Shown piece after piece: positions 397 to 13,566 of a stretch of 64,000 bases of DNA (positions are counted from its first letter, which is position 1; each line of letters begins with the position of its first letter). The notes under the pieces were generated by a model, which was given only the letters and a program-made list of their open reading frames with translations, was not told where the DNA came from and did no database searches. The DNA comes from an uncultured Desulfovibrionaceae bacterium. Lineage in GTDB: Bacteria > Desulfobacterota > Desulfovibrionia > Desulfovibrionales > Desulfovibrionaceae. Location: positions 1,106-65,105 of the forward strand of contig CAYJPT010000001.1 of NCBI GenBank assembly GCA_964372165.1, in the 5' to 3' direction. The translations under genes and the position numbers were made by a program.

Positions 397-972
397 TTAT
401 TCTGACCACTCCTCAGGTGCTGGCACACTTGGCAAAGGAAGGTTGGCAGACATTTGCTGAGTATTTACTATGAAATTAAGTCTAAAAGACCATATACTAC
501 CTTCACGCTTGCGCACAAAATGAGAGGTTTTATAACGCAATTCTTTTTTCACCACACTCATAGGACCAAAAAAATTTCGCATAGTGCTAATGTCAGAAGC
601 TTTCCAGCGAAAAGCTCCAACACTCATTAATTGCTCCATAACTCTTAAAAATTGTTGTCCACCTTCATTATTTTGTCCGGTGTCAGTGAAGGTTACCTCA
701 GCTCCCGTAACCACAAGTTTATTCACATATATTGTGAGTAATACACTATGCCCATAGTCAACTACATAGCCTTGCTCACTTTTACGCGCATTGGTAAGAC
801 TTACAAATTTTGTTTCATACTTGCCCCAGAATCTTTGAAAAGATTCCCATAAAAATTGCGGAGGCTGCTGAATAGACTCTTGATTTTGACAAGCCATTAA
901 ACAAATACATATCATGAATGAGGAGAAAAACAATAATCTTTTTTTCACACTATCATCCCTTTGCTGTAGCAT
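397..972 (-). CDS. Hypothetical lipoprotein, last gene of the export block
   Basis: ORF 397..1029 trimmed to the internal ATG at 972 (MLQQRDDSVKKRLLFFSSFMICICLMAC). It has a basic n-region, a hydrophobic core and an LMAC lipobox-like cysteine. No recognisable catalytic motif. Confidence 0.5.
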   Translation of the reverse strand: MLQQRDDSVKKRLLFFSSFMICICLMACQNQESIQQPPQFLWESFQRFWGKYETKFVSLTNARKSEQGYVVDYGHSVLLTIYVNKLVVTGAEVTFTDTGQNNEGGQQFLRVMEQLMSVGAFRWKASDISTMRNFFGPMSVVKKELRYKTSHFVRKREGSIWSFRLNFIVNTQQMSANLPLPSVPAPEEWSE

Positions 973-2368
973 TTTCCCAAGGCGGAGGTGGGCGCCATAC
1001 CCACAATAAAGCAAGCAGTGGAACAACACCTATAATTTCTGCTATCAAACGCCCGACTATAGGCAGTAATATCCACCACAAACTAAAAGCCAAGGCTGGC
1101 ACACAGATAACAATTACCCACTGCAAGATACTTAGTGGTTTAGCCTTATATTGAAAATATGATACCGTGCAAATGGCTACCCAAACCTTGGTTAAAGTTA
1201 TAGCCAGTGCTGCCCCTTCTAAAGGCATCTTTTGTGTTAAATAAGTACACAATAAAATATTTATCCCCAAACCACTGGCATAAAATACTAAAAGCAATTT
1301 GTGTTTACGCATGCTTATCATTGCATACGCTGCAAGATTGTGCAAAAAAGCAGTTGCAATGCAGGGTGCTAAAATCCGCTGTGCGGTAACCGCAACATCA
1401 TAATTTGCACCATAAATAAAGGTCAAAATACGATCACTTTCCACACATATAACATAAATCAAAGGCATACAAGCAGCCCACAAACTACGTGCAGTTTGCC
1501 CTGTTAATTTTTGAAATGCTAGTTTATCTGTATCCCATAATTTAGCCATAACCGGAAAAACAACTTTTGCCAAAAGCGCACTTGATACCAATACAGAAAG
1601 ACCGTCAACAACCTCCCAAGCAACGCTATACGCACCAACTGCGGCATCTCCACCATATTTTTTTAGAAAAAATACATTTAACTTATTATAAAGAATAGCG
1701 CATGCGGCAATGCATGTAAAAACAATCCCTTGCTTCCATTTATTTGCTATTTGCCTCAAGTCAACAAGGCGTATTCCTATAAGTGGATTACGCCCCAGTG
1801 CCTTTAGAGAAATAGAAACAAGAAGTAATGATTCAAGTGGTTTATATAGAGCAATATAGATGGGAGGTGCATCAAAAAGCACTAAGGCTATACCAACACC
1901 GATACCAATAAGACTTGCAGGAACACGAATACGCATCTCTACATCTTGGCGCCCTCGTGCTTGGCACAAAGCAAAAAACGAATCGCTAAGAGCATCAATA
2001 CCAAGCCCTGCAGCAATCGACATAACTATAATGCGTAATTCTAAACTATAGCCTTGCCAAACAGTAAAAAACCACGTGCCTACTAAAGCTAAGCAAAGCA
2101 GCACAATTTTTAGCCATGTAATGGCTCCCAGCAATTGAAGCGGACGGTTTTCACGCCTAGCAAATGTTGAGATTAAAAAGTCATTAAGCCCAACATCAGC
2201 AATAAGGCGTACAATATACCCAAATGATAGAGCAAGCATAATCTGGCCAAGGACATCAGAGCTATGACGCGCTAGAATAATAGTGAACAATGTCCACGTA
2301 ACATCACGAGTCCACTGCGCACCTAGCACATATCCAAGCCGCTGTGGAATGCTTCTTAACTTGGCCAT
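953..2368 (-). CDS. MOP-superfamily flippase (Wzx / polysaccharide-biosynthesis-protein type)
   Basis: 471 aa, polytopic and hydrophobic throughout. Overall resemblance to oligosaccharide/lipid flippase family proteins. Overlaps or abuts its neighbours on the same strand. Confidence 0.7.
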   Translation of the reverse strand: MAKLRSIPQRLGYVLGAQWTRDVTWTLFTIILARHSSDVLGQIMLALSFGYIVRLIADVGLNDFLISTFARRENRPLQLLGAITWLKIVLLCLALVGTWFFTVWQGYSLELRIIVMSIAAGLGIDALSDSFFALCQARGRQDVEMRIRVPASLIGIGVGIALVLFDAPPIYIALYKPLESLLLVSISLKALGRNPLIGIRLVDLRQIANKWKQGIVFTCIAACAILYNKLNVFFLKKYGGDAAVGAYSVAWEVVDGLSVLVSSALLAKVVFPVMAKLWDTDKLAFQKLTGQTARSLWAACMPLIYVICVESDRILTFIYGANYDVAVTAQRILAPCIATAFLHNLAAYAMISMRKHKLLLVFYASGLGINILLCTYLTQKMPLEGAALAITLTKVWVAICTVSYFQYKAKPLSILQWVIVICVPALAFSLWWILLPIVGRLIAEIIGVVPLLALLWVWRPPPPWENATAKG

Positions 2369-2383
2369 GTAACCTGTATCAAT

Positions 2384-3436
2384 TTAAGATGCGTTTGGTT
2401 GTGCGCTTGGCTGTACAATCGGCTGCGCGTTCGATTCTCCCTGAGGATTTTGATTATCATCACTTGGAGCTTGCGCAGGCTCAGCCTTCGCATCATCTTT
2501 ATTTTCTTGTTTATTAGCATTTTTTACATTACGAGACATTGCCACTAAAACCTTAAAACCAGGCCTTAATTCAAAATCTGGATTAGGAATAGTAAATTCT
2601 ATTGTAAAATATGATGGTGCACCAATTTCTATGTTATTACTAGTCCAAGAAATATTGCTAACAGTAGCATCAATAACCTTATCATTTAAAGAAGGAATAG
2701 TAGCTTGGCCTATGTCACCAACCTTTATATCTTCCATATCGCCTTCATATACAAGGACATTAATTAGCATTGGATTCAAAGTTCCGATGGTAATGGGCTT
2801 TGCACCCTCTGCTAATTCTTTATTGGGAAACAATCCTGACGCTAGAGAAAGCACTCTACCATCCATAGGGGCTTTAAGTACTAAACTTTTAGGAAGGTCC
2901 ATACCTTCTTTAATGGTTACTCCAAAGTATTCACTCAATTCTTCAAGTCTTTGCTTAAAGTTTTTTTCTCTTTTTGCTACCGCACGTTTAAGTAATTTAA
3001 TACGTTGCCTTATGGAGTCAACATCTCCAGCTAAACGATCGGAAAGTTGATCTGGTCCAAGCCCACTTGATGACAATTTACGCGCCGTATTCCTATTATT
3101 AGTAAGTTCTACTAATTGCCTTTCCGTGGACAAAATATTAGCTCGGTCTTCTTCAGTATTAGCTCCAGTGGTTACTTCTTGTTGCAAGTTTCGTCTGGCA
3201 TCATCTGTAAGTGTGTATTTCATCAAAACTTGATCTTTCATAACACTTTGGCCAGGCTTAACTAAAACTTCTTCAACCACGGCTTCAAAAGGTAATGCAG
3301 TAGCACGTGTTACTTGGCTAACAACTTTGCCACTAAGTGAGGTAGTTACTGTGGCAGCATCTGCACTTTGCAGGCTTGTAAAAAATGAACAAAAAACACA
3401 TATCAGTGCTATGTTTTTTATTTTGTTAATAATCAT
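2384..3436 (-). CDS. HlyD-family membrane fusion (periplasmic adaptor) protein
   Basis: N-terminal signal/anchor (IALICVFCSFFTSLQSADA), a lipoyl-like hairpin (VEEVLVKPGQSVMKDQVLMKY), a long coiled-coil middle and a beta-barrel-like C-terminal part. Low-complexity Q/N/P/A tail. Confidence 0.75.
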   Translation of the reverse strand: MIINKIKNIALICVFCSFFTSLQSADAATVTTSLSGKVVSQVTRATALPFEAVVEEVLVKPGQSVMKDQVLMKYTLTDDARRNLQQEVTTGANTEEDRANILSTERQLVELTNNRNTARKLSSSGLGPDQLSDRLAGDVDSIRQRIKLLKRAVAKREKNFKQRLEELSEYFGVTIKEGMDLPKSLVLKAPMDGRVLSLASGLFPNKELAEGAKPITIGTLNPMLINVLVYEGDMEDIKVGDIGQATIPSLNDKVIDATVSNISWTSNNIEIGAPSYFTIEFTIPNPDFELRPGFKVLVAMSRNVKNANKQENKDDAKAEPAQAPSDDNQNPQGESNAQPIVQPSAQPNAS

Positions 3437-3437
3437 G

Positions 3438-4916
3438 CTAAAACTCCTCTGATGCTGGCAAACCTAAGAAACGTTCACTTAGCAGGCCAGCAACATCCAT
3501 CCACTTAATTCTTGCCATATCATAATCTAGCTCTACCATAATTAAACTAATACGTGCAGCAATAAGGTCTGCTTGTGCACTAGCTAACTCAGGGTACACT
3601 ACAACGCCGTCATTAAAGCTAATTTCTTTTTCTTTTAACAGCATTTCTGAAACTTTTAAGTTATTTTGGGCTATTTTAAGGCTATTTTCAGCCAATTTTA
3701 CCATCTGTTGCCCCTCTATCCATTCATGCGAAAACTCTGTACGAGCCTGAGCTTGCTCTTGAAATGCCTGAGCTTTTTCCATGCGTGCGGTCTGTACACC
3801 GCGATAACGCCTACCCCAATCTATAAGAGGAAATTGCAAATTCAAGTGTACAAATGTATCTTCTTGTCCATCAACAGGCTGATACTGTCCAGCAGGTGGA
3901 TTATTATCAACACGGATAGCTATATCTGGAATGTACTCTGCCCACGCTAACATTATGCCAAGATCCATCAAAGCAATTTGTCCGCGCAGTAAAAGTGCGT
4001 CTTCACTGCGATTCCAGTGTTCTTCCCAATGTAATTGTTCTCCGTCAAAACCTTGAAGAATATTTTTTGCATCGGTAGTATCAACATTAAATTTATGCTC
4101 TAACTCCACACCAACTATACTCTTCAACTTAGTGCGCAGCATTAAATCTTCAATCTTATTACGCTCAAGTTCGAGTTGTCTTTCACGCTCTTGTTGTATT
4201 GCTATGTTAAGAGATGCACCTTGTTTGCCCTCCACAGCTTCTAATTGCTGCCAATATTCGATTAATTTTTTGGCTATAGGCAAAAGTTGCTCTTGTAATG
4301 CAATAGTTTTTCTTTTTGCCTCAAGCTGCTGATACATACCAGCAATATTTAAAATAGCTTCAGCAATCGCTTTGCGATGTGTGGACAAAGCAATATCAAT
4401 CATCATAGCTTTTGATTTGTGATTAAAATATGTTGAGACAGGATTTGGGAAACTCATATTAAAAGCTACCCGCATCTTTGTTTTAGCATAGTCTGCCGGC
4501 AAGTCTTCAAGTCCAGTATTTAGAGCTGTAATATTATTTGAAATGTCTAAAGATATAGTTGGCTCTGGTAAATATTGCCAAACTGCATCAACAAGCTTGA
4601 GCTTACTCATCTCAATAGATACGGCTGAGTTAGCTAGTAATGGAGATTGCTGTATTGCCAAATACACGCTATCATCAAAGGAAAATGCTTTGTCAGAATT
4701 ATATAGGTTTGGCATTGAAGCTTCTAGCTTTGCTTTATGCTCAACAGGCACTCCTGGAGCAGACTCAAGCCAGTGTCGTGCTGGCAATTCAGGCGCACTC
4801 ATACCAGCTTTTTGTGATGCGCAACCTCCAAGGAAAGCTATCATCATAAATAAACATATGATATTTTTTGAAAGATATAACCTCTGCCCCACAAACCAAC
4901 CACTAAATTTAAACAT
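3438..4916 (-). CDS. TolC-family outer membrane efflux protein
   Basis: 492 aa with a lipoprotein-like signal (FLGGCAS) and two long helical repeats typical of outer membrane factors. The stop is 1-2 nt from the adaptor gene start. Confidence 0.75.
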   Translation of the reverse strand: MFKFSGWFVGQRLYLSKNIICLFMMIAFLGGCASQKAGMSAPELPARHWLESAPGVPVEHKAKLEASMPNLYNSDKAFSFDDSVYLAIQQSPLLANSAVSIEMSKLKLVDAVWQYLPEPTISLDISNNITALNTGLEDLPADYAKTKMRVAFNMSFPNPVSTYFNHKSKAMMIDIALSTHRKAIAEAILNIAGMYQQLEAKRKTIALQEQLLPIAKKLIEYWQQLEAVEGKQGASLNIAIQQERERQLELERNKIEDLMLRTKLKSIVGVELEHKFNVDTTDAKNILQGFDGEQLHWEEHWNRSEDALLLRGQIALMDLGIMLAWAEYIPDIAIRVDNNPPAGQYQPVDGQEDTFVHLNLQFPLIDWGRRYRGVQTARMEKAQAFQEQAQARTEFSHEWIEGQQMVKLAENSLKIAQNNLKVSEMLLKEKEISFNDGVVVYPELASAQADLIAARISLIMVELDYDMARIKWMDVAGLLSERFLGLPASEEF

Positions 4917-4925
4917 TTTTTTACC

Positions 4926-7900
4926 TCATGACACAACAGAAAGCATACGTAAACCTTGCAATACGAGCAAAACCTTACCATTTACCTCAACTATTTGCGC
5001 ATTAATTAATTTTTCCAAGCCTGAACCTTGTAATTGCCAATCTATATGAGCAATGTCATAATTTTGCATAGCAGACACGTGGCTAAAATGTAAGATATCA
5101 ACTATTTGGTAATTTTCGTATGTTGGCAAAGCCAACTTTTGTATCAACCCAATGCTTGCGATTTGCAAGTTATAGTACAAATCATGCTGTTCTGCAATGT
5201 TTTTTATTGAAAATATATGCTCATGAATATTTTTTTTATCTAATAATTCCTGCCTATTATCTCCCCATAAAGGAATTATACTTTCCTCTTCATTACTTAG
5301 GTAAATTTTTCCTTTAGCGTAGCATTGTTTCTCTTGTAAACGCCGTCCATTTTCAGAAATTGCATAAATCTCAAGCGATGATTGGCATGGCAAAACCAAA
5401 CCTTGGCCTGCATTTGTCCATTGCTCAGCTTCTATTATCGCTTCACCCTCGCGCGTGATACCATCTGGACATTTAAATGCACTTTCAAAATGTAAATCAC
5501 TAGCTCCACTACATTGCAACCAAGTAAAACCCATACGTGCTGCACTATATAATGTATCTAACATAAAAAGAGGTGACACTTCGGGGGCAGATGTTTTTTG
5601 ACTAGCCAAAAAACCATCTGCATAAACAGAAAAATTACGACGTGCAATAAAATTTGTCTGGCTATCTAACTTCATTTGCTTAGGGTATAAATGTGGAAAG
5701 TTATGCATATCTTCAGCAAGACCAGCTTTTGCCACTGCTGTGGGGCTTGCATCTGGCATAAGGGTTGGCACTTGCGGAAATGATTTATGCCAAATAACAT
5801 TGTTCTCAGTACCACATAAAAGCTCACGAGCAAAAAGCATTGGCAATACATCATAATCAAGTAAACCTACGCCCAGCGCAGTAAATACACTTTGTAAACC
5901 CTCATTAGATAGCATACCCACATTACCATTTACAGGTGCTAACCATAGGCAACGCCAAAACAAATCATGCTTTGTACAAAACTGCTCCAATAAGGCAGCC
6001 ATAGCTCGATTAGCTGCAGCATAATTAGCTTGTCCTATATTACCACACCAGGCAGCAAGCGATGATATACCCACAGCATAGCGCAAACCATACTTAACCG
6101 ATTCTTGCAAAAGGTTTTCTAAGCCATCATATTTAACGGCCATTACCTGCGATATTTGCCTTGTGCTCAATTCACTCAACGGTACATCTTCATTTATACC
6201 AGCTCCATGTATTAAGCCATGTATTTCACCCCAAGTTTCAAAAATGCTTGCCAGCGTTGTTTGTACTTGTTTTTTATCACTCACATCACAGGCGTAATAA
6301 ACACATTTTGCCCCAAAACCTGCCAGTTTTTCTATAACTTGTTGAGAAGGCGCAGCACTACGCCCTAATAGCAACAAGGTGCATTCAAGCATGGCTAAGC
6401 CCTCTAAAGCCTTTGGAGTAATGCCACGCCCTCCACCTGAAACTATAATTACTTGCCCTTTGCTAATGGGTAAGCCAAATCTACCAGCAGCCCAAGGTTT
6501 TTGCTTTAAGCGAAGCGATCCCATGTAGCTTGAGTTTAAACATGAGTACAAAGGAAATTCACTATGCGTGCATAATATTTTTTGCATAAAGCCTTGCATT
6601 GCGCCATTACTTAAACCTTGCTTAGTGTGTATGGCTCTAAAATGACGCTGTGGATATTCCTGCGCTGCCGTCAAGAGTAATGCATTTAAGCTTGCAAAAA
6701 GATTTGAACCAAGTAGCGATGTTGTCAATTCTTCATGTACTATACACATTTGCCCTTTTTCACTACGCAAAAATGCCTGTACAAGACTCATGTATTCTAT
6801 AATAGGTGAAGAATCTTTATAGGATAAAATTTCATCTAGATATGGCAAAGCTATGACAATCAGACCTGGTTTCAAGTCTTGCTCAAGCGTTGCTTGTGCG
6901 TGAAGTATATCCTCAACCCTTAATACTTGCTCACTGCCAAAGGTTTGCGTCAAAAATTCATACCATTGTTGAGCATAGTCATTTTTCCCAACTATCACAG
7001 CCGGTAAAAATTCTTTTTTATCACTAAGCAATTGTGCATTCCACTCCTCACCTGGCATTACAAAAGGGCATTTTTCAATAACACTACGTACAATGGGATG
7101 AGTGGTAATAGGCTTTTCTATGGTAGGTTGTTCATCACTTGTTGAATCTATATTTAATGAACGCGCATTAGCCACAACCTTTGCTAAATCTGCAATAGTG
7201 GCAACATCTATAAAATCCTCAAAGTTGACCTTAACATTAAATGTCTTTTCAATTTCATTAATAACTACAGGAAAACGACTTGAACGCATAGCAAGGTCAT
7301 AACGCAAATCCATGTGTGCAGACAATTGGTGCGACTCAAAACCTGTTACTCGTACCAAAAGCGGTATAATGTCTTCTACATAATTGGCAGTGTTTTCAGT
7401 TTTTGTTTCAAGACATTTTGCGTCGCTTTGATCTTTTGCAATTTTTTTTCGCTTTGGTACAAAATTATCCGGAACAACATAAGTACTTGGGCCTTTAATA
7501 TGCCCAAGAGAATAAAGCTCAGCCACAGCCCTGCGCATGGCTTCAACTTCTTTACCTTTACGTCCAACGGAAATACGATGCGCTGTAGGTTGTATTTCTG
7601 AAATAAGCCGACTTAAAGTTGCAGTTGGACCAAGCTCCACAAAATGGCGAACAGAATAATCATTATATACTCTATTAACACAATCCACCCAGCGTACCGG
7701 GCTTTCATCAAGGTCAGCTATATATTCGCATATACTTTCTTTATCGTTTGGATATAAATCTGCAGTAACATTGCTTAACACTGGTGTATGTCCAGCTTGA
7801 ATAGTAAATTCCATCAAACTATCAATGGATATTTTGCGAATAGTACGCAAACCAGGATGATGGAAAGCCATACTAATATTAAGCAGGCCTACCATAATTT

Positions 7901-8762
7901 TTTGCTCTTTTAATTTAGCGCAGGCTTTTTCTAAATCGCTTCGTGTTCCACTTAAAATGTACTGCGTAGGGCTATTATAACTTGAAACATAAAAATTTGG
8001 AAAATCCTCTAAAACCTGCTTGATTACATCATAAGGAGCATGAACAGCCATCATACCACTATCGTGATTACCCTCTTGCTCCATATCATCTATAATTTTT
8101 GAATGCTTATTGATGATACCCCACGCATCTTCAGGCGAATATACTCCCGCTAGGCATAAGGCAATAAGCTCTCCTAAACTATGCCCAACAACAATATCCG
8201 CTTTATATCCTAGTGTCTCAAGGTAGTATGCTTGGGCATATGAAACGAAAAAAATATACGGAGCTTGCCAGCGTGTGCGCATAAGCTTTTTTTTATCGGT
8301 TTCATCAAGTAAGGCTAAAATATCCCAATCTGAAACAGCAGCAATGCGCTCCATGGCTGCTCTAACAGCAGGAATATTATCATAAAGTTCACGCCCCATA
8401 TGAGCAAAAACGCTGCCTTGCCCTCCGGTAATAGTAGCAATTCTAGGCTTATCTTGCTTTTTTTCCAGCCATATACCCTGCTTGCGCAAATCCTTTAAAG
8501 TAGCATTATCTGGATTTTTTCCAATGTTAGTTATATAATTACGCCATGATGGTGTTATAGAGCCAATTCGCCATAATTCACCTGCATGACTAAGGCTAAT
8601 TAAGCGAACACCATTTTCTACGTGTTGACTTTCTATGAAGTTTTCTTGTTCCTGTCCTGCACCCATAGATACGGCATTAGTACTTTCCAATTCAATGCTC
8701 CCACATAAAAGCCAATAATATGGCTTTTCAATATAAACTATATTAATTAACACATAAAACAA
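4926..8762 (-). CDS. KS-less PKS-like multidomain protein: acyltransferase - ACP-like - ketoreductase, plus unassigned N- and C-terminal regions
   Basis: AT motifs GGQGSV, GHSLGE (nt 8172-8186) and MAFHHP. ACP-like four-helix region around nt 7271-7315. SDR/KR motifs GGGRGIT (about nt 6421-6450) and YAAAN (about nt 6004-6032). No CHH ketosynthase motifs anywhere. The track start is a non-ATG codon; the true start may be the ATG at 8666. Confidence 0.85.
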   Translation of the reverse strand: MFYVLINIVYIEKPYYWLLCGSIELESTNAVSMGAGQEQENFIESQHVENGVRLISLSHAGELWRIGSITPSWRNYITNIGKNPDNATLKDLRKQGIWLEKKQDKPRIATITGGQGSVFAHMGRELYDNIPAVRAAMERIAAVSDWDILALLDETDKKKLMRTRWQAPYIFFVSYAQAYYLETLGYKADIVVGHSLGELIALCLAGVYSPEDAWGIINKHSKIIDDMEQEGNHDSGMMAVHAPYDVIKQVLEDFPNFYVSSYNSPTQYILSGTRSDLEKACAKLKEQKIMVGLLNISMAFHHPGLRTIRKISIDSLMEFTIQAGHTPVLSNVTADLYPNDKESICEYIADLDESPVRWVDCVNRVYNDYSVRHFVELGPTATLSRLISEIQPTAHRISVGRKGKEVEAMRRAVAELYSLGHIKGPSTYVVPDNFVPKRKKIAKDQSDAKCLETKTENTANYVEDIIPLLVRVTGFESHQLSAHMDLRYDLAMRSSRFPVVINEIEKTFNVKVNFEDFIDVATIADLAKVVANARSLNIDSTSDEQPTIEKPITTHPIVRSVIEKCPFVMPGEEWNAQLLSDKKEFLPAVIVGKNDYAQQWYEFLTQTFGSEQVLRVEDILHAQATLEQDLKPGLIVIALPYLDEILSYKDSSPIIEYMSLVQAFLRSEKGQMCIVHEELTTSLLGSNLFASLNALLLTAAQEYPQRHFRAIHTKQGLSNGAMQGFMQKILCTHSEFPLYSCLNSSYMGSLRLKQKPWAAGRFGLPISKGQVIIVSGGGRGITPKALEGLAMLECTLLLLGRSAAPSQQVIEKLAGFGAKCVYYACDVSDKKQVQTTLASIFETWGEIHGLIHGAGINEDVPLSELSTRQISQVMAVKYDGLENLLQESVKYGLRYAVGISSLAAWCGNIGQANYAAANRAMAALLEQFCTKHDLFWRCLWLAPVNGNVGMLSNEGLQSVFTALGVGLLDYDVLPMLFARELLCGTENNVIWHKSFPQVPTLMPDASPTAVAKAGLAEDMHNFPHLYPKQMKLDSQTNFIARRNFSVYADGFLASQKTSAPEVSPLFMLDTLYSAARMGFTWLQCSGASDLHFESAFKCPDGITREGEAIIEAEQWTNAGQGLVLPCQSSLEIYAISENGRRLQEKQCYAKGKIYLSNEEESIIPLWGDNRQELLDKKNIHEHIFSIKNIAEQHDLYYNLQIASIGLIQKLALPTYENYQIVDILHFSHVSAMQNYDIAHIDWQLQGSGLEKLINAQIVEVNGKVLLVLQGLRMLSVVS

Positions 8763-8766
8763 GATT

Positions 8767-8950
8767 CAGCACAATTAATTGGCACAGACTGATGACAAAC
8801 CCCCTTTCAGGCGTTTGTGCCGCCTAAGGCAGACAAGCTGCCTTGGCAGTAAGGCACGAAAATCATTCGTTTAACGGCGCAAATGAATTGCGCCTACTCT
8901 TGATTTATCGGCTCGTGCTGACTTTGTCAGCACTCTGAGCACAATTAATT
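8767..8950. repeat. Structured ~156-nt module flanked by an exact 14-bp direct repeat (AGCACAATTAATTG) and splitting a palindrome
   Basis: Direct repeats at 8767-8780 and 8937-8950. The second lies in the perfect 16-bp palindrome GCACAATTAATTGTGC (8938-8953). The interior carries at least four hairpins, for example AAGGCAG-ACAAG-CTGCCTT at 8825-8843. Its core is homologous to 16709-16794. Confidence 0.6.
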
Positions 8951-9346
8951 GTGCAGTAGTCTTAAAATATTCAATAAAAGACCACAAAGACAGAAAAAAT
9001 ATTTTTCACAACATAACAATTCAAACTATACTCAAAAAAATACATATCATATCAAATTCTTATGTGGAATAAAATTACAACTCCAAATTAATTCGCAAAA
9101 TGAGCACAGTATAGCATTATTACTTCCTACATTAGAAGTAACATGCTCATCAAAGCTGCAAGGTCTTTGATTTATAAATTATAGGACATTTTATCACACT
9201 TGTCTATCAAGGCATAGGTTTGCCCAAAACCAAGTTAATATATATTCTTGCCAAAAAGAAAAGTTTGTTGTAAGCATCTTCATTCACGTGCTACATGATA
9301 ACATTGTCAATACAAGCACCATATAAAACTTTGGGAGATAGATGGC

Positions 9347-10645
9347 ATGAATAAAGAGCAAGAATTGAACACCATGTCCGATGAGCAAATAGAAAAAAGT
9401 GATTCTTCGTTGGAGTTCAATTATGTGCACAAAAAACTTTCCGTTGGTCGAGCTGTGGCCATGGGAAAAAAAATGGGTATTCGCAACCCACTATTTTTGT
9501 GCCACGATAAAGCTGCCAAAGCTTATACCACCATTGAGGGCAAAGAATACCTCAATTTTTCTACCTATGATTACCTAGACATTAATACACATCCTGAAAT
9601 AACCGCCGCTGTTACTAAAGCTGCAGAAAAATACGGAACTTCTGCCGGTGCAAGCCGCCTTGTTGGTGGGGAGCGCCCACCACATTTAGAGCTTGAACGC
9701 GCCATTGCAGATTTTTATGAAGTTGATGATAGCATTGTTTACGTAAGTGGCCATGCAACCAATGTTTCAACATTGGGTTTTCTCTTCACCTCGCGCGATT
9801 TAATATTGCATGATAATCTTGCACATAACTCCTTAATGCAAGGAGCTAAGCTTTCATCTGCAACGCGCATGTCTTATACGCATGATAACACCGACGCTTT
9901 AGAAGCTATATTAAAACAACGCCGTAATGACTTTCGCCATGTAATAATTGTAACTGAAGGCCTTTTTAGCATGGACGGCAATATACCTGATTTACCACGC
10001 ATCGTTGAACTAAAAAAACAATATAATTGTATGCTACTTGTAGACGAAGCACACTCATTAGGTATACTTGGTGCAACAGGGCGTGGTGCACGTGAGCATT
10101 TTAATATTGACCCCAATGATGTTGACATGTGGATGAGCACCCTTAGTAAATCACTGTGTGGTTGCGGGGGTTTTATTGCCGGCAATAAAAAACTTATTGA
10201 AAACTTAAAGTATGGCTCTCCAGGCTTTGTTTTTAGCGTAGGAATGTCACCTATACTTGCTGTTGCATGCAAAACAGCTCTTGACATAATACAACGTGAA
10301 CCAGAGCGTGTACACAAATTACAACATATTAGTAAGTATTTTCTTGACTATGCCAAAAGCCTCAACCTTGATACTGGTGTTGCACAAGGATATGCCAATG
10401 TTCCAATAATCGTTGGTAATTCTATGGTGACAGGCGTTGTATCCAACGCACTATTAAACCGTGGTATTTACGTTATGCCTATTACTTTCCCGGCAGTGCA
10501 GGAAGGTACAGCAAGACTTCGTTTCTTCTTATCAGCTGCACATTCTGAAGCTGATGTACGAAGAGCACTTGATATTACAGCAGAAGAATTACCAAAGGCT
10601 GCAAAAACCATTGAAGAATGGATTGCAAACAACCCACAAGATTAA
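9347..10645 (+). CDS. PLP-dependent alpha-oxoamine synthase family enzyme (BioF / serine palmitoyltransferase / CqsA class)
   Basis: 432 aa with a class-II aminotransferase fold. VDEAHS and the PLP-lysine motif STLSKSL (about nt 10136-10160). SD-like GGGAGA precedes the ATG. Confidence 0.85.
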   Translation: MNKEQELNTMSDEQIEKSDSSLEFNYVHKKLSVGRAVAMGKKMGIRNPLFLCHDKAAKAYTTIEGKEYLNFSTYDYLDINTHPEITAAVTKAAEKYGTSAGASRLVGGERPPHLELERAIADFYEVDDSIVYVSGHATNVSTLGFLFTSRDLILHDNLAHNSLMQGAKLSSATRMSYTHDNTDALEAILKQRRNDFRHVIIVTEGLFSMDGNIPDLPRIVELKKQYNCMLLVDEAHSLGILGATGRGAREHFNIDPNDVDMWMSTLSKSLCGCGGFIAGNKKLIENLKYGSPGFVFSVGMSPILAVACKTALDIIQREPERVHKLQHISKYFLDYAKSLNLDTGVAQGYANVPIIVGNSMVTGVVSNALLNRGIYVMPITFPAVQEGTARLRFFLSAAHSEADVRRALDITAEELPKAAKTIEEWIANNPQD

Positions 10646-10834
10646 GTATTCACTTTAACAAGATAATTTTCACACTTTGTGCTATGCACTTAATGAATAT
10701 TATTTATTAGTGAACATTTTTTAGTAAAAAAATACTGCGCATCGTTATATTATGTTTCTTTTTGTCAAACAATGTACAGGCAAAAAGCTAGTGAAACATT
10801 CAAAAATTACAGTATAAAATACAAATTTATGACA

Positions 10835-10876
10835 ATTGAAGACCTCTGCGCAATCTATTGTGCAGAGGTCTTCAAT
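10835..10876. repeat. 20-bp-stem palindromic hairpin of the CTCTGCACAAT / ATTGTGCAGAG repeat family
   Basis: TTGAAGACCTCTGCGCAAT-CT-ATTGTGCAGAGGTCTTCAA has one G-T pair and no U-tract. The same arm sequence bounds the elements at 16626-16828 and 53110-53194. Confidence 0.6.
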
Positions 10877-10919
10877 CTTAAAAATACAAATATGTCATTG
10901 GGCATAATATGGAGTTACT

Positions 10920-12839
10920 ATGTGTGGCATAGCAGGTTTTTATCAACTTGATGGGCAAAATTTACCGCATGAAGCCTCTACATGGCTAAAAAATATGACA
11001 GACGCCATAAACTATCGTGGCCCAGACGGTGAGGGACAATGGATTGATGGTGCTGTTGCTCTAGGGCATAGGCGCCTTTCTATAATTGACCTAAAAACTG
11101 GTGCGCAGCCTATGTCAGATGCCTCTGACCAAGTATGGGTTACCTTCAATGGTGAAATATATAATTTTCCAGCACTACGTGAAGAATTAAAAGCACGCGG
11201 TTGCACCTTTCGCACAAACTCAGATACAGAAGTTATACTATATGCTTGGCAAGAATGGGGTAAGGATTGTGTGCAGCATTTTGAAGGCATGTTTGCCTTT
11301 GTCTTATATGATAAAAGACAAAAAATCCTTTTTTGCGCTAGGGATCGTTTTGGGAAAAAACCTTTCTATTACACGATTCAACAGGGTCGCTTTATTTTTG
11401 CCTCAGAACTTACAGCTATAAAATGCTTTCCAAACTTGAGCTTAAGTGTAAAGCCACAATCTCTTATGCGTTATTTAGCATATGAGTATGCGCCAACACC
11501 TGAGTGCATTTATACCGAAGTGCAAAAACTGCCTCCTTCACACAGCCTCATGCTATGTGAAGGAAAAACAACACTGTCGCGCTATTGGGAAATACCAACG
11601 CCGCTTGAAAATGTCACAGTTTCTGAAGATGACCTTGCAAGTGAGCTTTGCCACCTGCTAGACAAAGCTGTGGAGCGGCGCATGATAAGTGATGTGCCAC
11701 TTGGTGTTTTTCTATCCGGTGGTATTGATTCTTCAATAATCACAGCCCTAATGGCTGGCAAAGCTGATAAAATAAAAACATTTTCCATAGGGTTTAAAGA
11801 AGCAAGCTATGATGAGTCACAATATGCGCGCATTATTGCAAACCACTATACAACCGACCATTGCGAGCACATACTATCCGCCGATTATTGCGCAGAAATT
11901 TTGCCAGATGTTATAAGTCGTCTTGATGAGCCTATGGCTGACGCATCTGTTGCGCCAACATATTTATTATCAGAGCTTACCCGAAAGCATGTTACTGTGG
12001 CCCTTGGCGGTGACGGATCAGATGAATTATTTGCAGGCTATGAACATTTTATTGGCTTAAAAGTTGCTGAACATTACAACAAATGGCCTTCATTGTTGCG
12101 TAAAGGAATTGAAGGTATTTCATCAAGTTTACCTGCCAGTTCAAACTATATTAACTTAAACAATGCATTATCTACTTTTCTGGGTGCAGCTTATGCTCCA
12201 CCATGGCAAAGAGTACAAAGCTTGCTCACAGCCTTTACCCCTGAAATGCAACAAGATATTTGGAATAAAAATTTTATCAAGGATAACCATGATTTTTTAG
12301 CTTTAGATTCACTTTTTGCACCTACTAAGGAACATTTTTCCCACTGGCCAACCTCCAGCGCAGTGGGCAATGTAGAAAGAGCTGCTTATGTTTATGCACG
12401 ACAATTTCTTGTCGATGATATTTTAACTAAAGTGGATCGCTGCTCAATGTTGAAATCGCTTGAAGTGCGAGCACCATTTTTAGATACACAAGTGGCAGAA
12501 TTTGCAGCTAGACTACCACTACAGTATAAACTTAAAGGATTTAAAAGAAAATACTTACTTAAAAAAGCTTGTTCTGGGCTTTTACCCAAGGAAATTCTTA
12601 ATCGCAATAAGCGCGGATTTCAGATTCCAGTGGCCGCATGGTTACGAGGTTCCTTACGCCCCATGGTAGAAGAGTTATTAGGGGAACGCTTTTTGCAAGA
12701 ACAAGGTGTATTTAGTGTACCACACATTAAATCACTGGTAGATACGCACATGAGTGGCAAAAAAGATTTACGCAAGCCCCTTTGGACTTTGCTTGTGCTA
12801 CAAATGTGGTGGAGGGCAAACAAGCCAAAAATTTTATAA
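10920..12839 (+). CDS. Asparagine synthase (glutamine-hydrolysing) family amidotransferase, probable pathway-specific paralog
   Basis: N-terminal MCGIAG (Ntn Cys2), the SGGIDSS PP-loop, 639 aa. Confidence 0.9.
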   Translation: MCGIAGFYQLDGQNLPHEASTWLKNMTDAINYRGPDGEGQWIDGAVALGHRRLSIIDLKTGAQPMSDASDQVWVTFNGEIYNFPALREELKARGCTFRTNSDTEVILYAWQEWGKDCVQHFEGMFAFVLYDKRQKILFCARDRFGKKPFYYTIQQGRFIFASELTAIKCFPNLSLSVKPQSLMRYLAYEYAPTPECIYTEVQKLPPSHSLMLCEGKTTLSRYWEIPTPLENVTVSEDDLASELCHLLDKAVERRMISDVPLGVFLSGGIDSSIITALMAGKADKIKTFSIGFKEASYDESQYARIIANHYTTDHCEHILSADYCAEILPDVISRLDEPMADASVAPTYLLSELTRKHVTVALGGDGSDELFAGYEHFIGLKVAEHYNKWPSLLRKGIEGISSSLPASSNYINLNNALSTFLGAAYAPPWQRVQSLLTAFTPEMQQDIWNKNFIKDNHDFLALDSLFAPTKEHFSHWPTSSAVGNVERAAYVYARQFLVDDILTKVDRCSMLKSLEVRAPFLDTQVAEFAARLPLQYKLKGFKRKYLLKKACSGLLPKEILNRNKRGFQIPVAAWLRGSLRPMVEELLGERFLQEQGVFSVPHIKSLVDTHMSGKKDLRKPLWTLLVLQMWWRANKPKIL

Positions 12840-12885
12840 ACAGTCTTTTTAATTATAAAATACAGACTGTTCACTGGAGGAAGCT

Positions 12886-13515
12886 ATGTTTAAACGTCTA
12901 ATTTTTACTGCACTATTATGCCTTATTATGGTTGTGCCTGCTGCGGCAGAAACTTCCGGATTTTATGCTGGAGGTAAATTTATTTACTCCTATCAAACTT
13001 CTTGGGGCGGTGGATTATTTAGTGAATCCTACTCTCAAAGTGTCACTGGTGGTGGTTTTTTTGCAGGCTATGATTTTTATCAACAAAGTGACCTACCCAT
13101 ACGTGCTGAAATAGAATATGCTTTTCGTGGAAACCTTTATAAGGAAGATAATGCATCAGGCTACGCATCAGAAACTTTTTATAATATGCAAACATTATTA
13201 GTTAATTTTTATTATGACTTTTACAATGAAAGTTCCTTTACCCCCTATGTAGGTGCAGGTTTAGGTGTTGGATTTATGAATGGTAATTATAAATTTGATG
13301 TATCCGGAAGCAGTTTTGAAGGTAGTATGACCGACACAGTGCTTGCCTGGCATGTAGGTGGCGGTGTTGGCTATGCCATAACAGATAGAATTACTGCTGA
13401 CCTTGGTTATCGCTATCAAACCTTTGGCAGTAGCTACAAAGATTCCAACAATCAAGAGTTTGAAACTTCCACCAGCGGCCATGAAATAAGCCTTGGTGTA
13501 CGCTTTAACTTCTAA
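12886..13515 (+). CDS. Small outer-membrane beta-barrel protein
   Basis: Signal peptide ending AAAE, alternating aromatic/Gly beta-strand pattern, and the C-terminal GVRFNF with a terminal Phe typical of OMPs. Confidence 0.75.
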   Translation: MFKRLIFTALLCLIMVVPAAAETSGFYAGGKFIYSYQTSWGGGLFSESYSQSVTGGGFFAGYDFYQQSDLPIRAEIEYAFRGNLYKEDNASGYASETFYNMQTLLVNFYYDFYNESSFTPYVGAGLGVGFMNGNYKFDVSGSSFEGSMTDTVLAWHVGGGVGYAITDRITADLGYRYQTFGSSYKDSNNQEFETSTSGHEISLGVRFNF

Positions 13516-13520
13516 AATCA

Positions 13521-13542: not shown

Positions 13543-13566
13543 AGTCTAAAATTTCATTAACAAAAC

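What the first reader, a model, noticed from the sequence alone, without database searches (positions are those of the whole stretch)
397..13515. Orphan KS-less acyl/amino-lipid biosynthesis-and-export locus (best candidate for an undescribed system)
Eight genes sit in two divergent blocks around a shared 585-bp control region. The minus strand carries the AT-ACP-KR megaprotein, a TolC-type channel, a HlyD-type adaptor, a MOP flippase and a lipoprotein, packed with 1-15 nt gaps or overlaps. The plus strand carries an alpha-oxoamine synthase (AOS), an AsnB-type amidotransferase and a small OM beta-barrel. There is no ketosynthase, NRPS C/A domain, thioesterase or glycosyltransferase. The only C-C bond-forming enzyme is the PLP-dependent AOS. 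In known pathways (BioF, serine palmitoyltransferase, CqsA/LqsA, the capnine CapB step) this enzyme class condenses an amino acid with an acyl thioester to give an alpha-amino ketone. A plausible logic is that AT loads the ACP, AOS condenses an amino acid onto the acyl-ACP, KR reduces the 3-keto group (as in sphingoid-base synthesis), AsnB amidates a carboxylate, and the product is flipped and exported to the outer membrane or the medium. I do not recognise this gene combination as a characterised pathway.
Basis: partly seen in the sequence, partly recalled or inferred. Interest (0 to 1): 0.82.

Follow-up and report, generated by a model that had tools for sequence, protein, structure and literature searches.

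The report
Orphan Desulfovibrionaceae acyl-amino biosynthesis-export cassette
This is a real eight-gene unit, conserved across the sulfate-reducing family Desulfovibrionaceae (including human-gut species) and not yet characterised, that probably joins a carrier-bound acyl group to an amino acid, adds an amide, and exports the product through an unusual flippase-adaptor-TolC route.

Summary
All eight ORFs exist at the stated coordinates, in two divergent blocks, with the predicted protein families.

The gene set is not a chance juxtaposition. At least 584 genome stretches, almost all Desulfovibrionaceae (D. piger, D. desulfuricans, D. falkowii; D. legallii by its AOS orthologue), encode relatives. 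TolC+adaptor+MOP follow the megaprotein in 54 of 56 assessable loci. The AOS lies divergently upstream in 44 of 58.

The window copy is a reduced variant. Relatives carry an intact KS in front (a PfaA-like KS-AT-ACP-KR-DH module). Most gut species add two GT4 glycosyltransferases. The window lacks both, and its DH-like domain lacks the candidate catalytic residues.

Ten literature searches and every source annotation gave only generic names, so "orphan" stands; MIBiG could not be queried.

The product is unknown. My best guess is an exported amino-lipid-like amphiphile. The main rival is a small malonamyl-derived amino-ketone made by OxyD-type logic. A MOP transporter coupled to an adaptor and TolC would itself be unusual.

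The parts
397..1029 (-). Small lipoprotein of an unnamed family. The probable true start is Met20, at 972.
   Evidence: The lipobox LMAC (Cys47 of the ORF) and a conserved mature motif, PQFLWESFQRFWGK...GYxVDYG...NEGGxQFLRL...FRW, are shared by 10 related loci. There is no Pfam, NCBIfam or PDB match. The large protein database holds only 5 homologues. The AF2 model was poor (pLDDT 49).
953..2368 (-). Multi-pass inner-membrane transporter: a divergent MOP/PST (Wzx-like) family member.
   Evidence: The window copy has no significant family hit (MatE E = 0.012). Orthologues (57-82% identical) hit PF01943, PF13440 and NF041871 Wzx_EPS. Mean column identity across 10 orthologues is 70%. Only 67 of 1.84 billion representatives score E <= 1e-30.
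2384..3436 (-). Periplasmic adaptor (membrane-fusion protein, HlyD family).
   Evidence: HlyD_D23 35.7 bits and HlyD_3 31.7 bits. Weak RND_mfp and DevB hits. An N-terminal signal or anchor sequence is visible.
3438..4916 (-). TolC-family outer-membrane channel.
   Evidence: PF02321 OEP, 98 bits, two stretches.
4926..8762 (-). Megaprotein with architecture AT-ACP-KR-DH-like: a PfaA-type PKS module without its KS.
   Evidence: The closest full-length relatives are P0002 and P0003 at 45% and 41% identity. KS-containing relatives are 35-39% identical.
8538..8645 (-). Remnant of the KS-AT linker (residues ~40-75) at the N-terminus of the megaprotein.
   Evidence: It aligns with the segment directly after the KS domain in KS-containing relatives (VENGVRLISLSHAGELWRIG against VVNGTRLMGLLHRGEEWRMG). 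Invariant residues include G51, L57, W64, R65 and W73.
7596..8426 (-). Acyltransferase domain (malonyl-type fold).
   Evidence: GHSLGE and xAFHH motifs. The best PDB matches are FabD enzymes. The carboxylate-binding Arg (Ser+25) is His here and in 6 other members, and Arg in 112 others.
7176..7370 (-). Acyl carrier domain.
   Evidence: PP-binding, 26 bits. A family-invariant D-L-x-x-R-S-S-R-F-P segment (Ser494) replaces the usual DSL. A PPTase gene sits beside the homologue in L039.
5979..6455 (-). Ketoreductase catalytic subdomain.
   Evidence: PF08659, 104 bits. GGGRGI, Lys, Ser and YAAAN motifs are present.
4929..5807 (-). C-terminal double-hotdog, PKS dehydratase-like domain, probably inactive as a dehydratase.
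   Evidence: AF2 pLDDT 87, pTM 0.85. Foldseek top hits are CurF/J/K DH, E ~1e-10, TM ~0.55. Four of 20 family members hit PF14765 PS-DH. The window clade has R-N-F-S and no E-x-x-x-Q, where most members of the other clades have a His and (L/V)E(G/A)xxQ.
8763..9346 (.). Shared divergent control region, with two copies of the palindrome GCACAATTAATTG(T/G)GC at 8769-8781 and 8939-8954.
   Evidence: 5 strand matches in the window against 0.54 expected. Promoter-like hexamers face both ways but are not above the shuffle expectation. There is no Rfam match of note.
9347..10645 (+). PLP-dependent alpha-oxoamine synthase (AOS).
   Evidence: Scores are TIGR00858 343 bits, KBL 302 and SPT 292, all below their curated cut-offs. 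Catalytic residues are conserved in the alignment to 8s1y. Orthologues are 63-79% identical across the family.
10920..12839 (+). Glutamine-dependent AsnB-type amidotransferase.
   Evidence: Asn_synthase 340 bits plus GATase_7. Its nearest model is TIGR03108, the XrtA/PEP-CTERM amidotransferase (626 bits against a cut-off of 817). The N-terminus is Met-Cys-Gly. The best PDB match is 7ylz, a hydroxyamidotransferase.
12886..13515 (+). Small outer-membrane beta-barrel protein.
   Evidence: OMP_b-brl 73 bits. PDB matches are the Opa60 and NspA small outer-membrane barrels. It is present in only 6 of 58 assessable loci.
13524..13539 (.). Third copy of the palindrome (GCACAATAAATTGTGC), directly after the barrel gene's stop codon.

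Best explanation
**What it is.** The locus is one variant of a conserved, uncharacterised biosynthesis-and-export cassette of Desulfovibrionaceae. It descends from a single PfaA-like PKS module (KS-AT-ACP-KR-DH) teamed with an alpha-oxoamine synthase, an AsnB-type amidotransferase and a dedicated envelope exporter.

**Likely steps in the window (all inferred).**
1. The AT charges the in-cis carrier domain with an acyl unit. The AT fold says malonyl. The Arg-to-His change in this copy leaves a non-carboxylated acyl group possible.
2. With no KS of its own, any chain growth must come from the housekeeping fatty-acid KS acting on this carrier, or there is none.
3. The AOS condenses an amino acid onto the carrier-bound thioester. 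This releases an alpha-amino ketone and forms the only C-C bond the locus can make.
4. The intact KR reduces a keto group.
5. The glutamine-dependent AsnB enzyme converts a carboxylate to an amide.
6. The DH-like domain has lost its candidate catalytic residues. It probably serves as a scaffold or a binding module.
7. The MOP/PST-type membrane protein, the periplasmic adaptor and the TolC channel are translationally packed and always co-inherited. They move the product across the envelope. The lipoprotein and the small beta-barrel are clade-specific outer-membrane accessories.

**Likely product.** An amphiphilic amino-lipid-like, amide-bearing molecule destined for the outer membrane or cell surface. 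Most gut Desulfovibrio would make a glycosylated version.

**Shown.** Gene and domain content, catalytic motifs, co-conservation, and the KS/KR loss pattern.

**Inferred.** Every chemical step, the substrate identities, and the three-part exporter assembly.
For: **Content and motifs.**

**Co-inheritance.**
- The same eight-gene layout occurs in L001/L007, L002/L008 and L009, with different flanks.
- TolC+MFP+MOP are present in 54 of 56 assessable loci, the AOS in 44 of 58, and AOS+AsnB in 42 of 58.
- Conservation is strong: AOS 63-79%, AsnB 54-81%, MOP 57-82% identity.

**PfaA-like ancestry.**
- Relatives carry an intact KS (Cys-His-His) fused in front.
- NCBIfam finds PKS_plus_SDR and PfaA similarity.
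- The outgroups L013 (ER-KS-AT-KR-DH followed by TolC) and L030 have KS and KR.

**Pointers to a lipid-type product.**
- L013 contains a PfaD-like enoyl-reductase domain.
- L039 (Chloroflexota) pairs the same KS-less AT-ACP-KR-DH protein with a PPTase, a fused fatty-acyl-AMP-ligase-ACP-AOS and an ABC exporter.
- GT4 glycosyltransferases and a Wzx-like flippase occur in most loci.

**Precedents.**
- AOS enzymes that draw on a dedicated ACP: the AcpR/AasR/SPT system (PMC9386255).
- A PKS-made glycolipid exported through an adaptor and TolC: heterocyst glycolipids (PMC8064123).
Against: - No product, mutant or expression data exist.
- KS and KR have been lost repeatedly while AT, ACP, AOS and AsnB persist. 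This is awkward if a long chain must be built on this carrier. It fits better with a small malonyl-derived unit.
- The family AT is malonyl-type, and a malonyl thioester is not a lipid.
- In L039 the AOS has its own FAAL-loaded ACP. The AT-ACP megaprotein may therefore not be the AOS's acyl donor at all.
- The carrier domain has an atypical RSS motif, and no PPTase lies in the window.
- In 14 of 58 loci the AOS/AsnB block is not next to the megaprotein.
- To my knowledge, MOP transporters are not known partners of adaptor/TolC pairs.
Confidence: 0.45

Rival explanations
1. **Small polar metabolite by OxyD-type logic.** The AT loads malonyl onto the ACP. The AsnB enzyme amidates the free carboxylate to give malonamyl-S-ACP. 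The AOS condenses an amino acid onto it, giving a gamma-amino-beta-keto amide. The KR, where present, reduces that to the beta-hydroxy amide. The KS, where present, adds one more C2 unit. The MOP protein acts like a MATE-type efflux pump, feeding the adaptor and TolC, and the product is a secreted soluble compound (a signal, antimetabolite or metal binder).
For: - The only invariant catalytic parts across the family are a malonyl-type AT, an ACP, AsnB and the AOS. Those four form a self-sufficient pathway.
- KS, KR and the DH residues behave as optional decorations.
- An AsnB homologue, OxyD, is reported to generate the malonamate starter unit of oxytetracycline (PMC6164072).
- AsnB has its Cys2 nucleophile.
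- TolC pumps typically expel small molecules.
- The window MOP's only marginal Pfam hit is MatE.
Against: - The window AT has His in place of the malonyl-binding Arg.
- Orthologues of the transporter hit Wzx/PST flippase models, not MATE.
- The GT4 pairs, the lipoprotein and the OM barrel point to envelope biology.
- Outgroups carry an ER domain or a fatty-acyl-AMP ligase.
- The nearest AsnB model is the exopolysaccharide-associated TIGR03108.
Confidence: 0.25
2. **A classical bacterial sphingolipid or sulfonolipid-type pathway.** The AOS is a serine (or cysteate) acyltransferase that uses acyl-ACP, the KR is the 3-ketosphinganine reductase, and the product is a ceramide-like outer-membrane lipid.
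For: - The AOS scores 292 bits against the CFB serine palmitoyltransferase model, 212 bits against Sphingobacterium SPT and 171 bits against cysteate-C-fatty acyltransferase.
- It has a dedicated carrier, as in AcpR-dependent SPTs.
- An SDR reductase is present.
- The export genes point to the outer membrane.
Against: - All SPT models score far below their curated cut-offs (292 against 640).
- BioF and KBL models score as high or higher.
- No acyl-ACP synthetase and no ceramide-synthase-type N-acyltransferase lies in the locus or the window.
- The KR is absent from most family members.
- AsnB has no role in known sphingolipid routes.
- A search for Desulfovibrio sphingolipid literature found nothing relevant.
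Confidence: 0.08
3. **A CAI-1/LAI-1-like autoinducer system.** The AOS makes an alpha-amino or alpha-hydroxy ketone signal that is pumped out through TolC.
For: - The AOS family includes CqsA and LqsA.
- Weak hits exist to NF005526 (164 bits) and to the CqsA structures (89 bits).
- An exporter is present.
Against: - The score is far below the cut-off (164 against 428).
- No sensor kinase or response regulator is linked in the window or in related loci.
- Known systems need neither a PKS-type megaprotein, nor AsnB, nor glycosyltransferases.
Confidence: 0.05
4. **Housekeeping genes that merely sit together.** The AOS is BioF and AsnB is asparagine synthetase, lying next to an unrelated efflux operon.
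For: - The best NCBIfam hit of the AOS is bioF (343 bits).
- AsnB passes the generic asn_synth_AEB cut-off (535 against 267).
- In 14 of 58 loci the two blocks are unlinked.
Against: - The bioF score is below its cut-off (426).
- No bioA, bioB or bioD lies nearby.
- The AOS-AsnB pair stays divergently linked to the megaprotein in 42 of 58 loci, across genomes whose megaproteins are only 29-54% identical to the window's, and with changing flanks.
- In most loci two GT4 genes are inserted between the AOS and AsnB. That makes sense only for a dedicated pathway.
Confidence: 0.03

Closest known systems
PfaA-type PUFA / 'secondary lipid' synthases (pfa-like clusters, Shulse & Allen 2011, PMC3098273) and the HglE heterocyst-glycolipid synthase
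   Same: - The domain order is KS-AT-ACP-KR-DH in KS-bearing relatives, and AT-ACP-KR-DH in the window.
- NCBIfam finds PfaA and PKS_plus_SDR similarity.
- The outgroup L013 has a PfaD-like ER fused in front.
- The products of most pfa-like types are unknown envelope lipids.
   Different: - There are no PfaB, PfaC or PfaD partners, only a single ACP, and no KS in the window.
- Scores are far below the family cut-off (167 against 1010).
- The obligatory AOS and AsnB partners are not part of any of the 20 catalogued types.
- That survey lists neither Desulfovibrio nor any aminotransferase-linked type.
Heterocyst glycolipid export by DevBCA with the TolC homologue HgdD (PMC8064123 and Staron et al. 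2011, cited there)
   Same: - A PKS-made amphiphile is glycosylated (in most Desulfovibrio versions) and exported through a membrane-fusion protein and a TolC-family channel encoded with the pathway.
- The window's adaptor has a weak DevB-family hit.
   Different: - The inner-membrane component here is a MOP/PST-type protein, not an ABC transporter.
- The window has no glycosyltransferase.
- The AOS and AsnB have no counterpart in that system.
Bacterial sphingolipid initiation: SPT with the specialised carrier AcpR and its loader AasR (PMC9386255)
   Same: - An AOS-family enzyme works with a dedicated acyl carrier rather than with CoA or the housekeeping ACP.
- A reductase acts on the keto group.
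- The product is destined for the outer membrane.
   Different: - The carrier is a domain of a PKS-type megaprotein and is loaded by an AT, not by an acyl-ACP synthetase.
- There is no ceramide synthase.
- The AOS is not an SPT by the curated thresholds.
- AsnB and a TolC-type exporter are added.
PKS-AOS hybrids such as RedL/PigH of prodiginine synthesis and SxtA of saxitoxin synthesis (my own knowledge; one orthologue is auto-named PigH)
   Same: A carrier-bound acyl or beta-ketoacyl unit made by PKS-type domains is released by a PLP-dependent AOS that condenses it with an amino acid.
   Different: - There the AOS is fused to the carrier, and the products are pyrrole or guanidine alkaloid precursors.
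- Here the AOS is a separate, divergently transcribed gene.
- None of the downstream tailoring genes of those pathways is present.
OxyD malonamyl starter-unit formation in oxytetracycline biosynthesis (PMC6164072, citing Zhang et al. 2006)
   Same: An AsnB-family glutamine amidotransferase is encoded alongside a malonyl-loading AT and an ACP. It could turn a malonyl thioester into a malonamyl thioester.
   Different: - OxyD works with a type II minimal PKS in actinomycetes.
- That system has no AOS and no exporter of this type.
- The window AsnB is closest to the exopolysaccharide-linked TIGR03108 group.
Tripartite envelope exporters (adaptor + TolC with an RND, ABC or MFS pump; my own knowledge)
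   Same: The TolC-family and HlyD-family genes sit in one tightly packed operon with a single inner-membrane transporter gene. This is the standard genetic signature of a three-part pump.
   Different: The inner-membrane gene belongs to the MOP/PST flippase superfamily. To my knowledge that superfamily is not an established partner class.

Membership tests
PfaA-type PUFA/secondary-lipid synthase | A KS domain heads the module | tested here: not met
   There is no KS Pfam hit in the window protein or anywhere in the window. No KS remnant was found by phmmer. Relatives such as P0004 and P0024 do have an intact KS.
PfaA-type PUFA/secondary-lipid synthase | AT, ACP, KR and DH follow in that order | tested here: met
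   AT spans residues 113-389, ACP 465-529, KR 772-927 and the DH-like double hotdog 986-1278.
PfaA-type PUFA/secondary-lipid synthase | The score reaches the curated family threshold (TIGR02813), and PfaB/C/D partner genes are present | tested here: not met
   The score is 166.7 bits against a cut-off of 1010. No partner genes lie in the locus.
Alpha-oxoamine synthase superfamily (PLP fold type I) | The catalytic His, Asp-x-x-His, PLP-binding Lys and carboxylate-binding Arg are conserved | tested here: met
   The alignment to 8s1y shows LAHNS, VDEAHSLG, TLSKSL and ARLRF.
BioF (8-amino-7-oxononanoate synthase) | The curated equivalog score is reached, in a biotin-operon context | tested here: not met
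   TIGR00858 scores 342.8 bits against a cut-off of 426.45. No bioA, bioB or bioD neighbours exist.
Serine palmitoyltransferase / bacterial sphingolipid pathway | The curated SPT score is reached, and a partner acyl-ACP synthetase and ceramide synthase are present | tested here: not met
   NF047600 scores 292 against 640, NF047599 scores 237 against 500, and NF047603 scores 187 against 670. None of the eight genes is an AMP-ligase or an N-acyltransferase. The only AMP-binding gene in the window lies 41 kb away.
CqsA/LqsA autoinducer synthase | The curated score is reached, and a sensor kinase is linked | tested here: not met
   NF005526 scores 164 against 428. No kinase lies in the locus.
Class II (Ntn) glutamine amidotransferase, AsnB family | An N-terminal Cys nucleophile, a GATase domain and an Asn_synthase domain are present | tested here: met
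   The protein starts MCG. PF13537 scores 163 bits and PF00733 scores 340 bits.
XrtA/PEP-CTERM system amidotransferase (TIGR03108) | The curated score is reached, in an exosortase context | tested here: not met
   The score is 625.7 bits against a cut-off of 816.9. No exosortase gene was seen among the window proteins scanned.
OxyD-type malonamyl initiation | An AsnB homologue acts on a malonyl thioester | not testable with these tools
   Only the parts list is compatible: a malonyl-type AT, an ACP and AsnB. This needs an enzyme assay.
Tripartite adaptor/TolC exporter | An OMF (TolC-family) gene and an MFP (HlyD-family) gene lie in one operon | tested here: met
   PF02321 scores 98 bits and PF16576 scores 35.7 bits (above the cut-off of 30). 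The two genes are 1 nt apart. All three exporter genes (TolC, MFP, MOP) co-occur in 54 of 56 loci.
Tripartite adaptor/TolC exporter | The inner-membrane partner belongs to the RND, ABC or MFS class | tested here: not met
   The only membrane transporter gene in the operon is of the MOP/PST type.
MOP/PST (Wzx-type) flippase superfamily | A significant match to the Polysacc_synt, MurJ or Wzx models | tested here: inconclusive
   The window protein itself has no hit at E <= 0.01. Orthologues at 57-82% identity match PF13440 (2.7e-17), PF01943 and NF041871 (4e-11). The family profile finds no solved structure by sequence.
PKS dehydratase (PS-DH double hotdog) | The double-hotdog fold | tested here: met
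   AF2 pLDDT is 87. Foldseek matches CurF/J/K, GphF and MAS-like DH domains at E 1e-10 to 1e-9 and TM about 0.5-0.58.
PKS dehydratase (PS-DH double hotdog) | The catalytic His and the acidic residue of the DxxxQ/H helix are present | tested here: not met
   The window clade has Asn (R-N-F-S) and no E/D-x-x-x-Q. Most members of the other clades have a His and (L/V)E(G/A)xxQ. The residue equivalence is inferred from the sequence alignment and secondary structure, not from a residue-level superposition.

The most novel reading that the evidence does not exclude
Desulfovibrionaceae, including common human-gut species, make a so-far undescribed family-wide envelope molecule: an amide-bearing amino-lipid or amino-glycolipid. 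Its only dedicated C-C bond is formed by an alpha-oxoamine synthase acting on a PKS-derived carrier. It is delivered to the cell surface by a new class of three-part exporter, in which a MOP/PST flippase-type protein, rather than an RND, ABC or MFS pump, couples to a periplasmic adaptor and TolC.
Probability: 0.3. Interest if true: 0.8.

Novelty: new variant of a known kind. Interest (0 to 1): 0.62.

Why it matters
**Who carries it.** Desulfovibrio species are widespread gut sulfate reducers that have been linked to inflammatory disease. Their surface chemistry beyond LPS is poorly known.

**What it could reveal.** The cassette is conserved across the family. Its AOS and transporter are 60-80% identical between genomes whose other genes have diverged much further, which suggests strong selection on the product. 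Most gut species add glycosyltransferases. Identifying the product would define a new bacterial lipid or metabolite class that could interact with the host.

**Mechanistic interest.**
- It would show what a KS-less PKS module does when an AOS is the only condensing enzyme.
- It would test whether AsnB-type enzymes amidate carrier-bound malonate outside actinomycete antibiotic pathways.
- It would test whether MOP-family transporters can act as the inner-membrane engine of a TolC-type exporter.

**A built-in experiment.** The natural series of variants (with or without KS, KR and GT4) predicts structure differences that can be checked directly.

Tried and rejected
**Searches and predictions that gave nothing**
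- Looking up the window's own megaprotein by identity found no record. The source genome was not among the species representatives either; the best hit was 54% identical.
- A profile of the lipoprotein family found nothing in the PDB.
- The MOP family profile found no solved structure by sequence.
- Rfam on the control region gave only a chance-level hit.
- Promoter-like sites in the control region were not above the shuffle expectation.
- The palindrome is absent from all 86 related loci, so it is not a conserved operator of the cassette.
- phmmer found no degenerate KS in KS-less members that have long N-termini.

**Literature**
- Ten searches and targeted reading found no description of this gene set. 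The papers read were the G20 phosphate-limitation study, the 2026 Desulfovibrio pangenome paper, the Shulse & Allen survey and a gut-lipid review.

**Readings I rejected**
- Biotin synthesis.
- A CqsA-type signal.
- A classical sphingolipid pathway (see the rival explanations).
- Treating the AT's Arg-to-His change as proof of a non-malonyl substrate. His recurs in only 7 of 119 members, and the closest relatives keep Arg.

Full report
**1.

The ORF scan reproduces the eight reading frames at the stated coordinates. Five lie on the minus strand: 397-1029, 953-2368, 2384-3436, 3438-4916 and 4926-8762. They are separated by 9, 1 and 15 nt and one overlap. Three lie on the plus strand: 9347-10645, 10920-12839 and 12886-13515. 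A 584-bp intergenic region sits between the two blocks.

- an acyltransferase, a carrier domain and a ketoreductase in the 1278-aa protein;
- a TolC-family OEP protein;
- a HlyD-family adaptor;
- a PLP-dependent alpha-oxoamine synthase (AOS);
- an AsnB-type glutamine amidotransferase starting Met-Cys-Gly;
- a small outer-membrane beta-barrel.

Two calls rest on indirect evidence:
- The 471-aa membrane protein has no significant hit itself. Its 57-82% identical orthologues match Polysacc_synt, Polysacc_synt_3 and an EPS Wzx model.
- The last ORF belongs to no named family. It has a conserved lipobox and a strongly conserved mature region.

No KS, NRPS domain, thioesterase or glycosyltransferase lies in the locus or anywhere else in the 64 kb. 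The rest of the window is housekeeping: lepA, haem, flagellar, repair and purine genes.

**2.

- *A fourth domain.* Some relatives consist of AT-ACP joined directly to the last ~290 residues, so that region is a separate module. An AlphaFold model built on 20 family sequences is confident (pLDDT 87, pTM 0.85). Its best structural matches are the double-hotdog dehydratase domains of the curacin, gephyronic acid and MAS-like PKSs (E about 1e-10, TM about 0.55). Four of 20 family members also hit the PS-DH Pfam model. The protein is therefore AT-ACP-KR-DH-like, which is the PfaA domain order without the KS.
- *The DH is probably inactive.* In the window clade the candidate catalytic positions are Asn (R-N-F-S) and a non-acidic residue. 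Most members of the other clades have a His beside the invariant F-S, plus an (L/V)E(G/A)xxQ helix. This equivalence comes from the alignment and secondary structure, not from a residue-level superposition.
- *The KR looks active.* It keeps its GGGRGI, Lys, Ser and YAAAN motifs.
- *The AT is malonyl-type by fold and motifs.* It has GHSLGE and xAFHH, and FabD enzymes are its best solved relatives. In the window, though, the carboxylate-binding Arg is His. This is true of only 7 of 119 family members.
- *The carrier domain is atypical.* It has a family-invariant R-S-S-R-F-P segment instead of DSL.

**3. It is a conserved cassette, not an orphan or a chance neighbourhood**

*Homologues.* A homologue search with the megaprotein found three architectures: rare AT-ACP-KR proteins, KS-AT-ACP-KR proteins of 1650-1880 aa, and many AT-ACP-X proteins from Desulfovibrio.

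*Gene contexts.* The same neighbours appear every time: the AOS and AsnB divergently upstream, and TolC, adaptor and MOP downstream.

*Genome scan.* At least 584 stretches encode relatives. Almost all are Desulfovibrionaceae, including D. piger ATCC 29098, D. desulfuricans, D. falkowii and many gut MAGs. D. legallii appears among the AOS orthologues.

*Co-occurrence in the 83 non-duplicate loci fetched:*
- TolC+adaptor+MOP are present in 54 of 56 loci that have enough downstream sequence. The two exceptions are the outgroups from other phyla or orders.
- The AOS is present in 44 of 58 loci that have enough upstream sequence, and AsnB accompanies it in 42.
- Two GT4 glycosyltransferases and an unknown 345-aa protein lie between the AOS and AsnB in 37 of those 42.
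- The barrel and the lipoprotein occur in only 6 and 10 loci respectively.

*Other points.* The closest eight-gene matches (L007, L008, L009) have different flanking genes from the window, so the unit moves as a block. Where the AOS block is missing, unrelated housekeeping genes take its place, so the two transcription units can be separated.

**4. Direction of evolution**

- The KS domains of relatives keep the Cys-His-His triad.
- The window protein starts exactly at the post-KS linker, whose conserved residues are invariant across the family.
- KS-less members contain no degenerate KS.
- In a rough neighbour-joining tree of the shared AT region, outgroups from Desulfobacterales and another deltaproteobacterium have KS and KR. 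Inside Desulfovibrionaceae, several KS-less and KR-less lineages nest among KS+KR ones.
- The window clade, which has a KR, is sister to a KR-less group.

I read this as repeated domain loss from a PfaA-like ancestor. The window is a strongly reduced version: no KS, no GT4, and a dead DH.

**5. How it most likely works**

*Shown:* the parts, their motifs and their co-inheritance. *Inferred:* every chemical step below.

My preferred reading (about 0.45):
1. The AT charges its own carrier.
2. The AOS condenses an amino acid onto the carrier-bound thioester, releasing an alpha-amino ketone. It is catalytically intact and is the only C-C bond-forming enzyme encoded here.
3. The KR reduces a keto group.
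4. AsnB amidates a carboxylate.
5. MOP, adaptor and TolC carry the product across the envelope, with the lipoprotein and the barrel as clade-specific outer-membrane accessories.

Evidence that the product is lipid-like:
- The outgroup L013 has a PfaD-type enoyl reductase fused to KS-AT-KR-DH, followed by a TolC gene.
- The Chloroflexota locus L039 pairs the same KS-less AT-ACP-KR-DH protein with a PPTase, a fused fatty-acyl-AMP-ligase-ACP-AOS and an ABC exporter.
- The transporter resembles a Wzx-type flippase, and most loci carry GT4 genes.

Precedents:
- SPTs that use a specialised ACP (PMC9386255).
- A PKS-made glycolipid exported through an adaptor and TolC in heterocysts (PMC8064123).

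**6. The main rival**

The only invariant catalytic parts are a malonyl-type AT, an ACP, AsnB and the AOS. That set could work by itself:
1. Malonyl-ACP is amidated to malonamyl-ACP. The AsnB homologue OxyD is reported to do this for the oxytetracycline starter unit (PMC6164072).
2. The AOS then makes a gamma-amino-beta-keto amide.
3. KS, KR and DH act as optional decorations.

This explains the repeated KS and KR losses better than the lipid model. It fits less well with the flippase-type transporter, the glycosyltransferases, the outgroup evidence and the window's Arg-to-His AT. I give it about 0.25.

I consider the classical sphingolipid, CqsA-type signal and housekeeping BioF/AsnB readings unlikely. 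All the curated models score far below threshold, and the required partner genes are absent.

**7. Comparison with what is known, and novelty**

The cassette resembles, in part:
- pfa-like secondary-lipid synthases;
- the heterocyst glycolipid system;
- AcpR-dependent sphingolipid initiation;
- PKS-AOS hybrids such as RedL, PigH and SxtA;
- OxyD-type initiation.

It is not a member of any of them (see the membership table). The survey of pfa-like cluster types lists neither Desulfovibrio nor an AOS-linked type. Ten literature searches and four targeted readings found no description. All source names for the megaprotein and AOS orthologues are generic or automatic. I could not query MIBiG.

I classify it as a new variant of a known kind: a PKS/AOS hybrid biosynthesis-export cluster.

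Its most unusual feature is the invariant operon of TolC, adaptor and a MOP/PST-type transporter with no RND, ABC or MFS gene. The MOP protein belongs to a small, distinct and very conserved subfamily (70% mean column identity; 67 representatives at E <= 1e-30 out of 1.84 billion).

**8. Verdict**

- The locus should be reframed as a reduced member of a family-wide Desulfovibrionaceae cassette that descends from a PfaA-like module.
- The product and the order of reactions remain open.
- Interest is moderate to high. The cassette is conserved in gut-relevant bacteria, has natural variants that make its chemistry testable, and may reveal a new exporter class. Uncharacterised biosynthetic clusters are nevertheless common, and nothing here breaks known enzymology.

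Noticed in passing
window 8769-8781, 8939-8954, 13524-13539: A 16-bp palindrome, GCACAATTAATTGTGC, occurs twice upstream of the megaprotein gene. It occurs once more, with one mismatch per half, directly after the barrel gene's stop codon. It is found nowhere else in the 64 kb (5 strand matches against 0.54 expected) and in none of 86 related loci. It could be the operator of a species-specific regulator, or a local repeat. GC-rich hairpin-like sequence lies between the first two copies (8790-8935).
   Followed up: partly
window 8666-8762: The megaprotein ORF's TTG start at 8762 adds 32 residues with no counterpart in relatives. Met33 (ATG at 8666) is the more likely start, which widens the control region to about 680 bp. 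Likewise, the lipoprotein probably starts at Met20 (972), not at the GTG at 1029.
   Followed up: partly
window 7770-7790 (megaprotein residue His220, 25 residues after the active-site Ser195): The AT's malonyl-carboxylate-binding Arg is His in the window and in six other family members (P0027, P0030, P0034, P0042, P0046, P0048). The other 112 members have Arg. This may signal a change of acyl specificity in a few lineages.
   Followed up: partly
window 7275-7295 (megaprotein residues 489-498): The carrier domain has a family-invariant D-L-x-x-R-S-S-R-F-P segment where ACPs normally have DSL around the phosphopantetheine serine. No PPTase gene lies in the window, whereas the distant homologue in L039 has one adjacent.
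   Followed up: no
L039:95-10386 (Candidatus Limnocylindria MAG): A Chloroflexota contig carries a KS-less AT-ACP-KR-DH protein (1341 aa), a PPTase, a fused AMP-ligase-ACP-AOS protein (1121 aa) and an ABC-2 exporter. This is a related logic in a distant phylum, with a different loader and a different exporter.
   Followed up: partly
L013:12-11229 (Desulfobacterales MAG): A 2397-aa protein with an NMO-type enoyl reductase fused to KS-AT-KR-DH is preceded by a radical-SAM/SPASM gene and a GT1 gene and followed by a TolC-family gene. It may resemble the ancestral form of the cassette.
   Followed up: no
window 33733-39626 compared with L014:294-6951: A block of genes lies about 25 kb from the cassette in the window but directly next to it in the related MAG locus L014. 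The block comprises the L,D-transpeptidase/Cds6_C gene, an unknown gene, adenylosuccinate lyase and MltA. The cassette or its surroundings have therefore been rearranged between close relatives.
   Followed up: no
L075 and L082: Contigs labelled Odoribacter splanchnicus and Bulleidia sp. carry the Desulfovibrio-type AT-ACP/TolC/adaptor genes, at the same identity levels as Desulfovibrio loci. They are most likely binning contaminants rather than real occurrences in those taxa.
   Followed up: no
window 1-20000: GC content is about 36-44%. From my own knowledge this is low for Desulfovibrionaceae. The closest relatives are uncultured Desulfovibrionaceae MAGs from one study (ERP123703), which suggests a distinct low-GC lineage of the family.
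   Followed up: no
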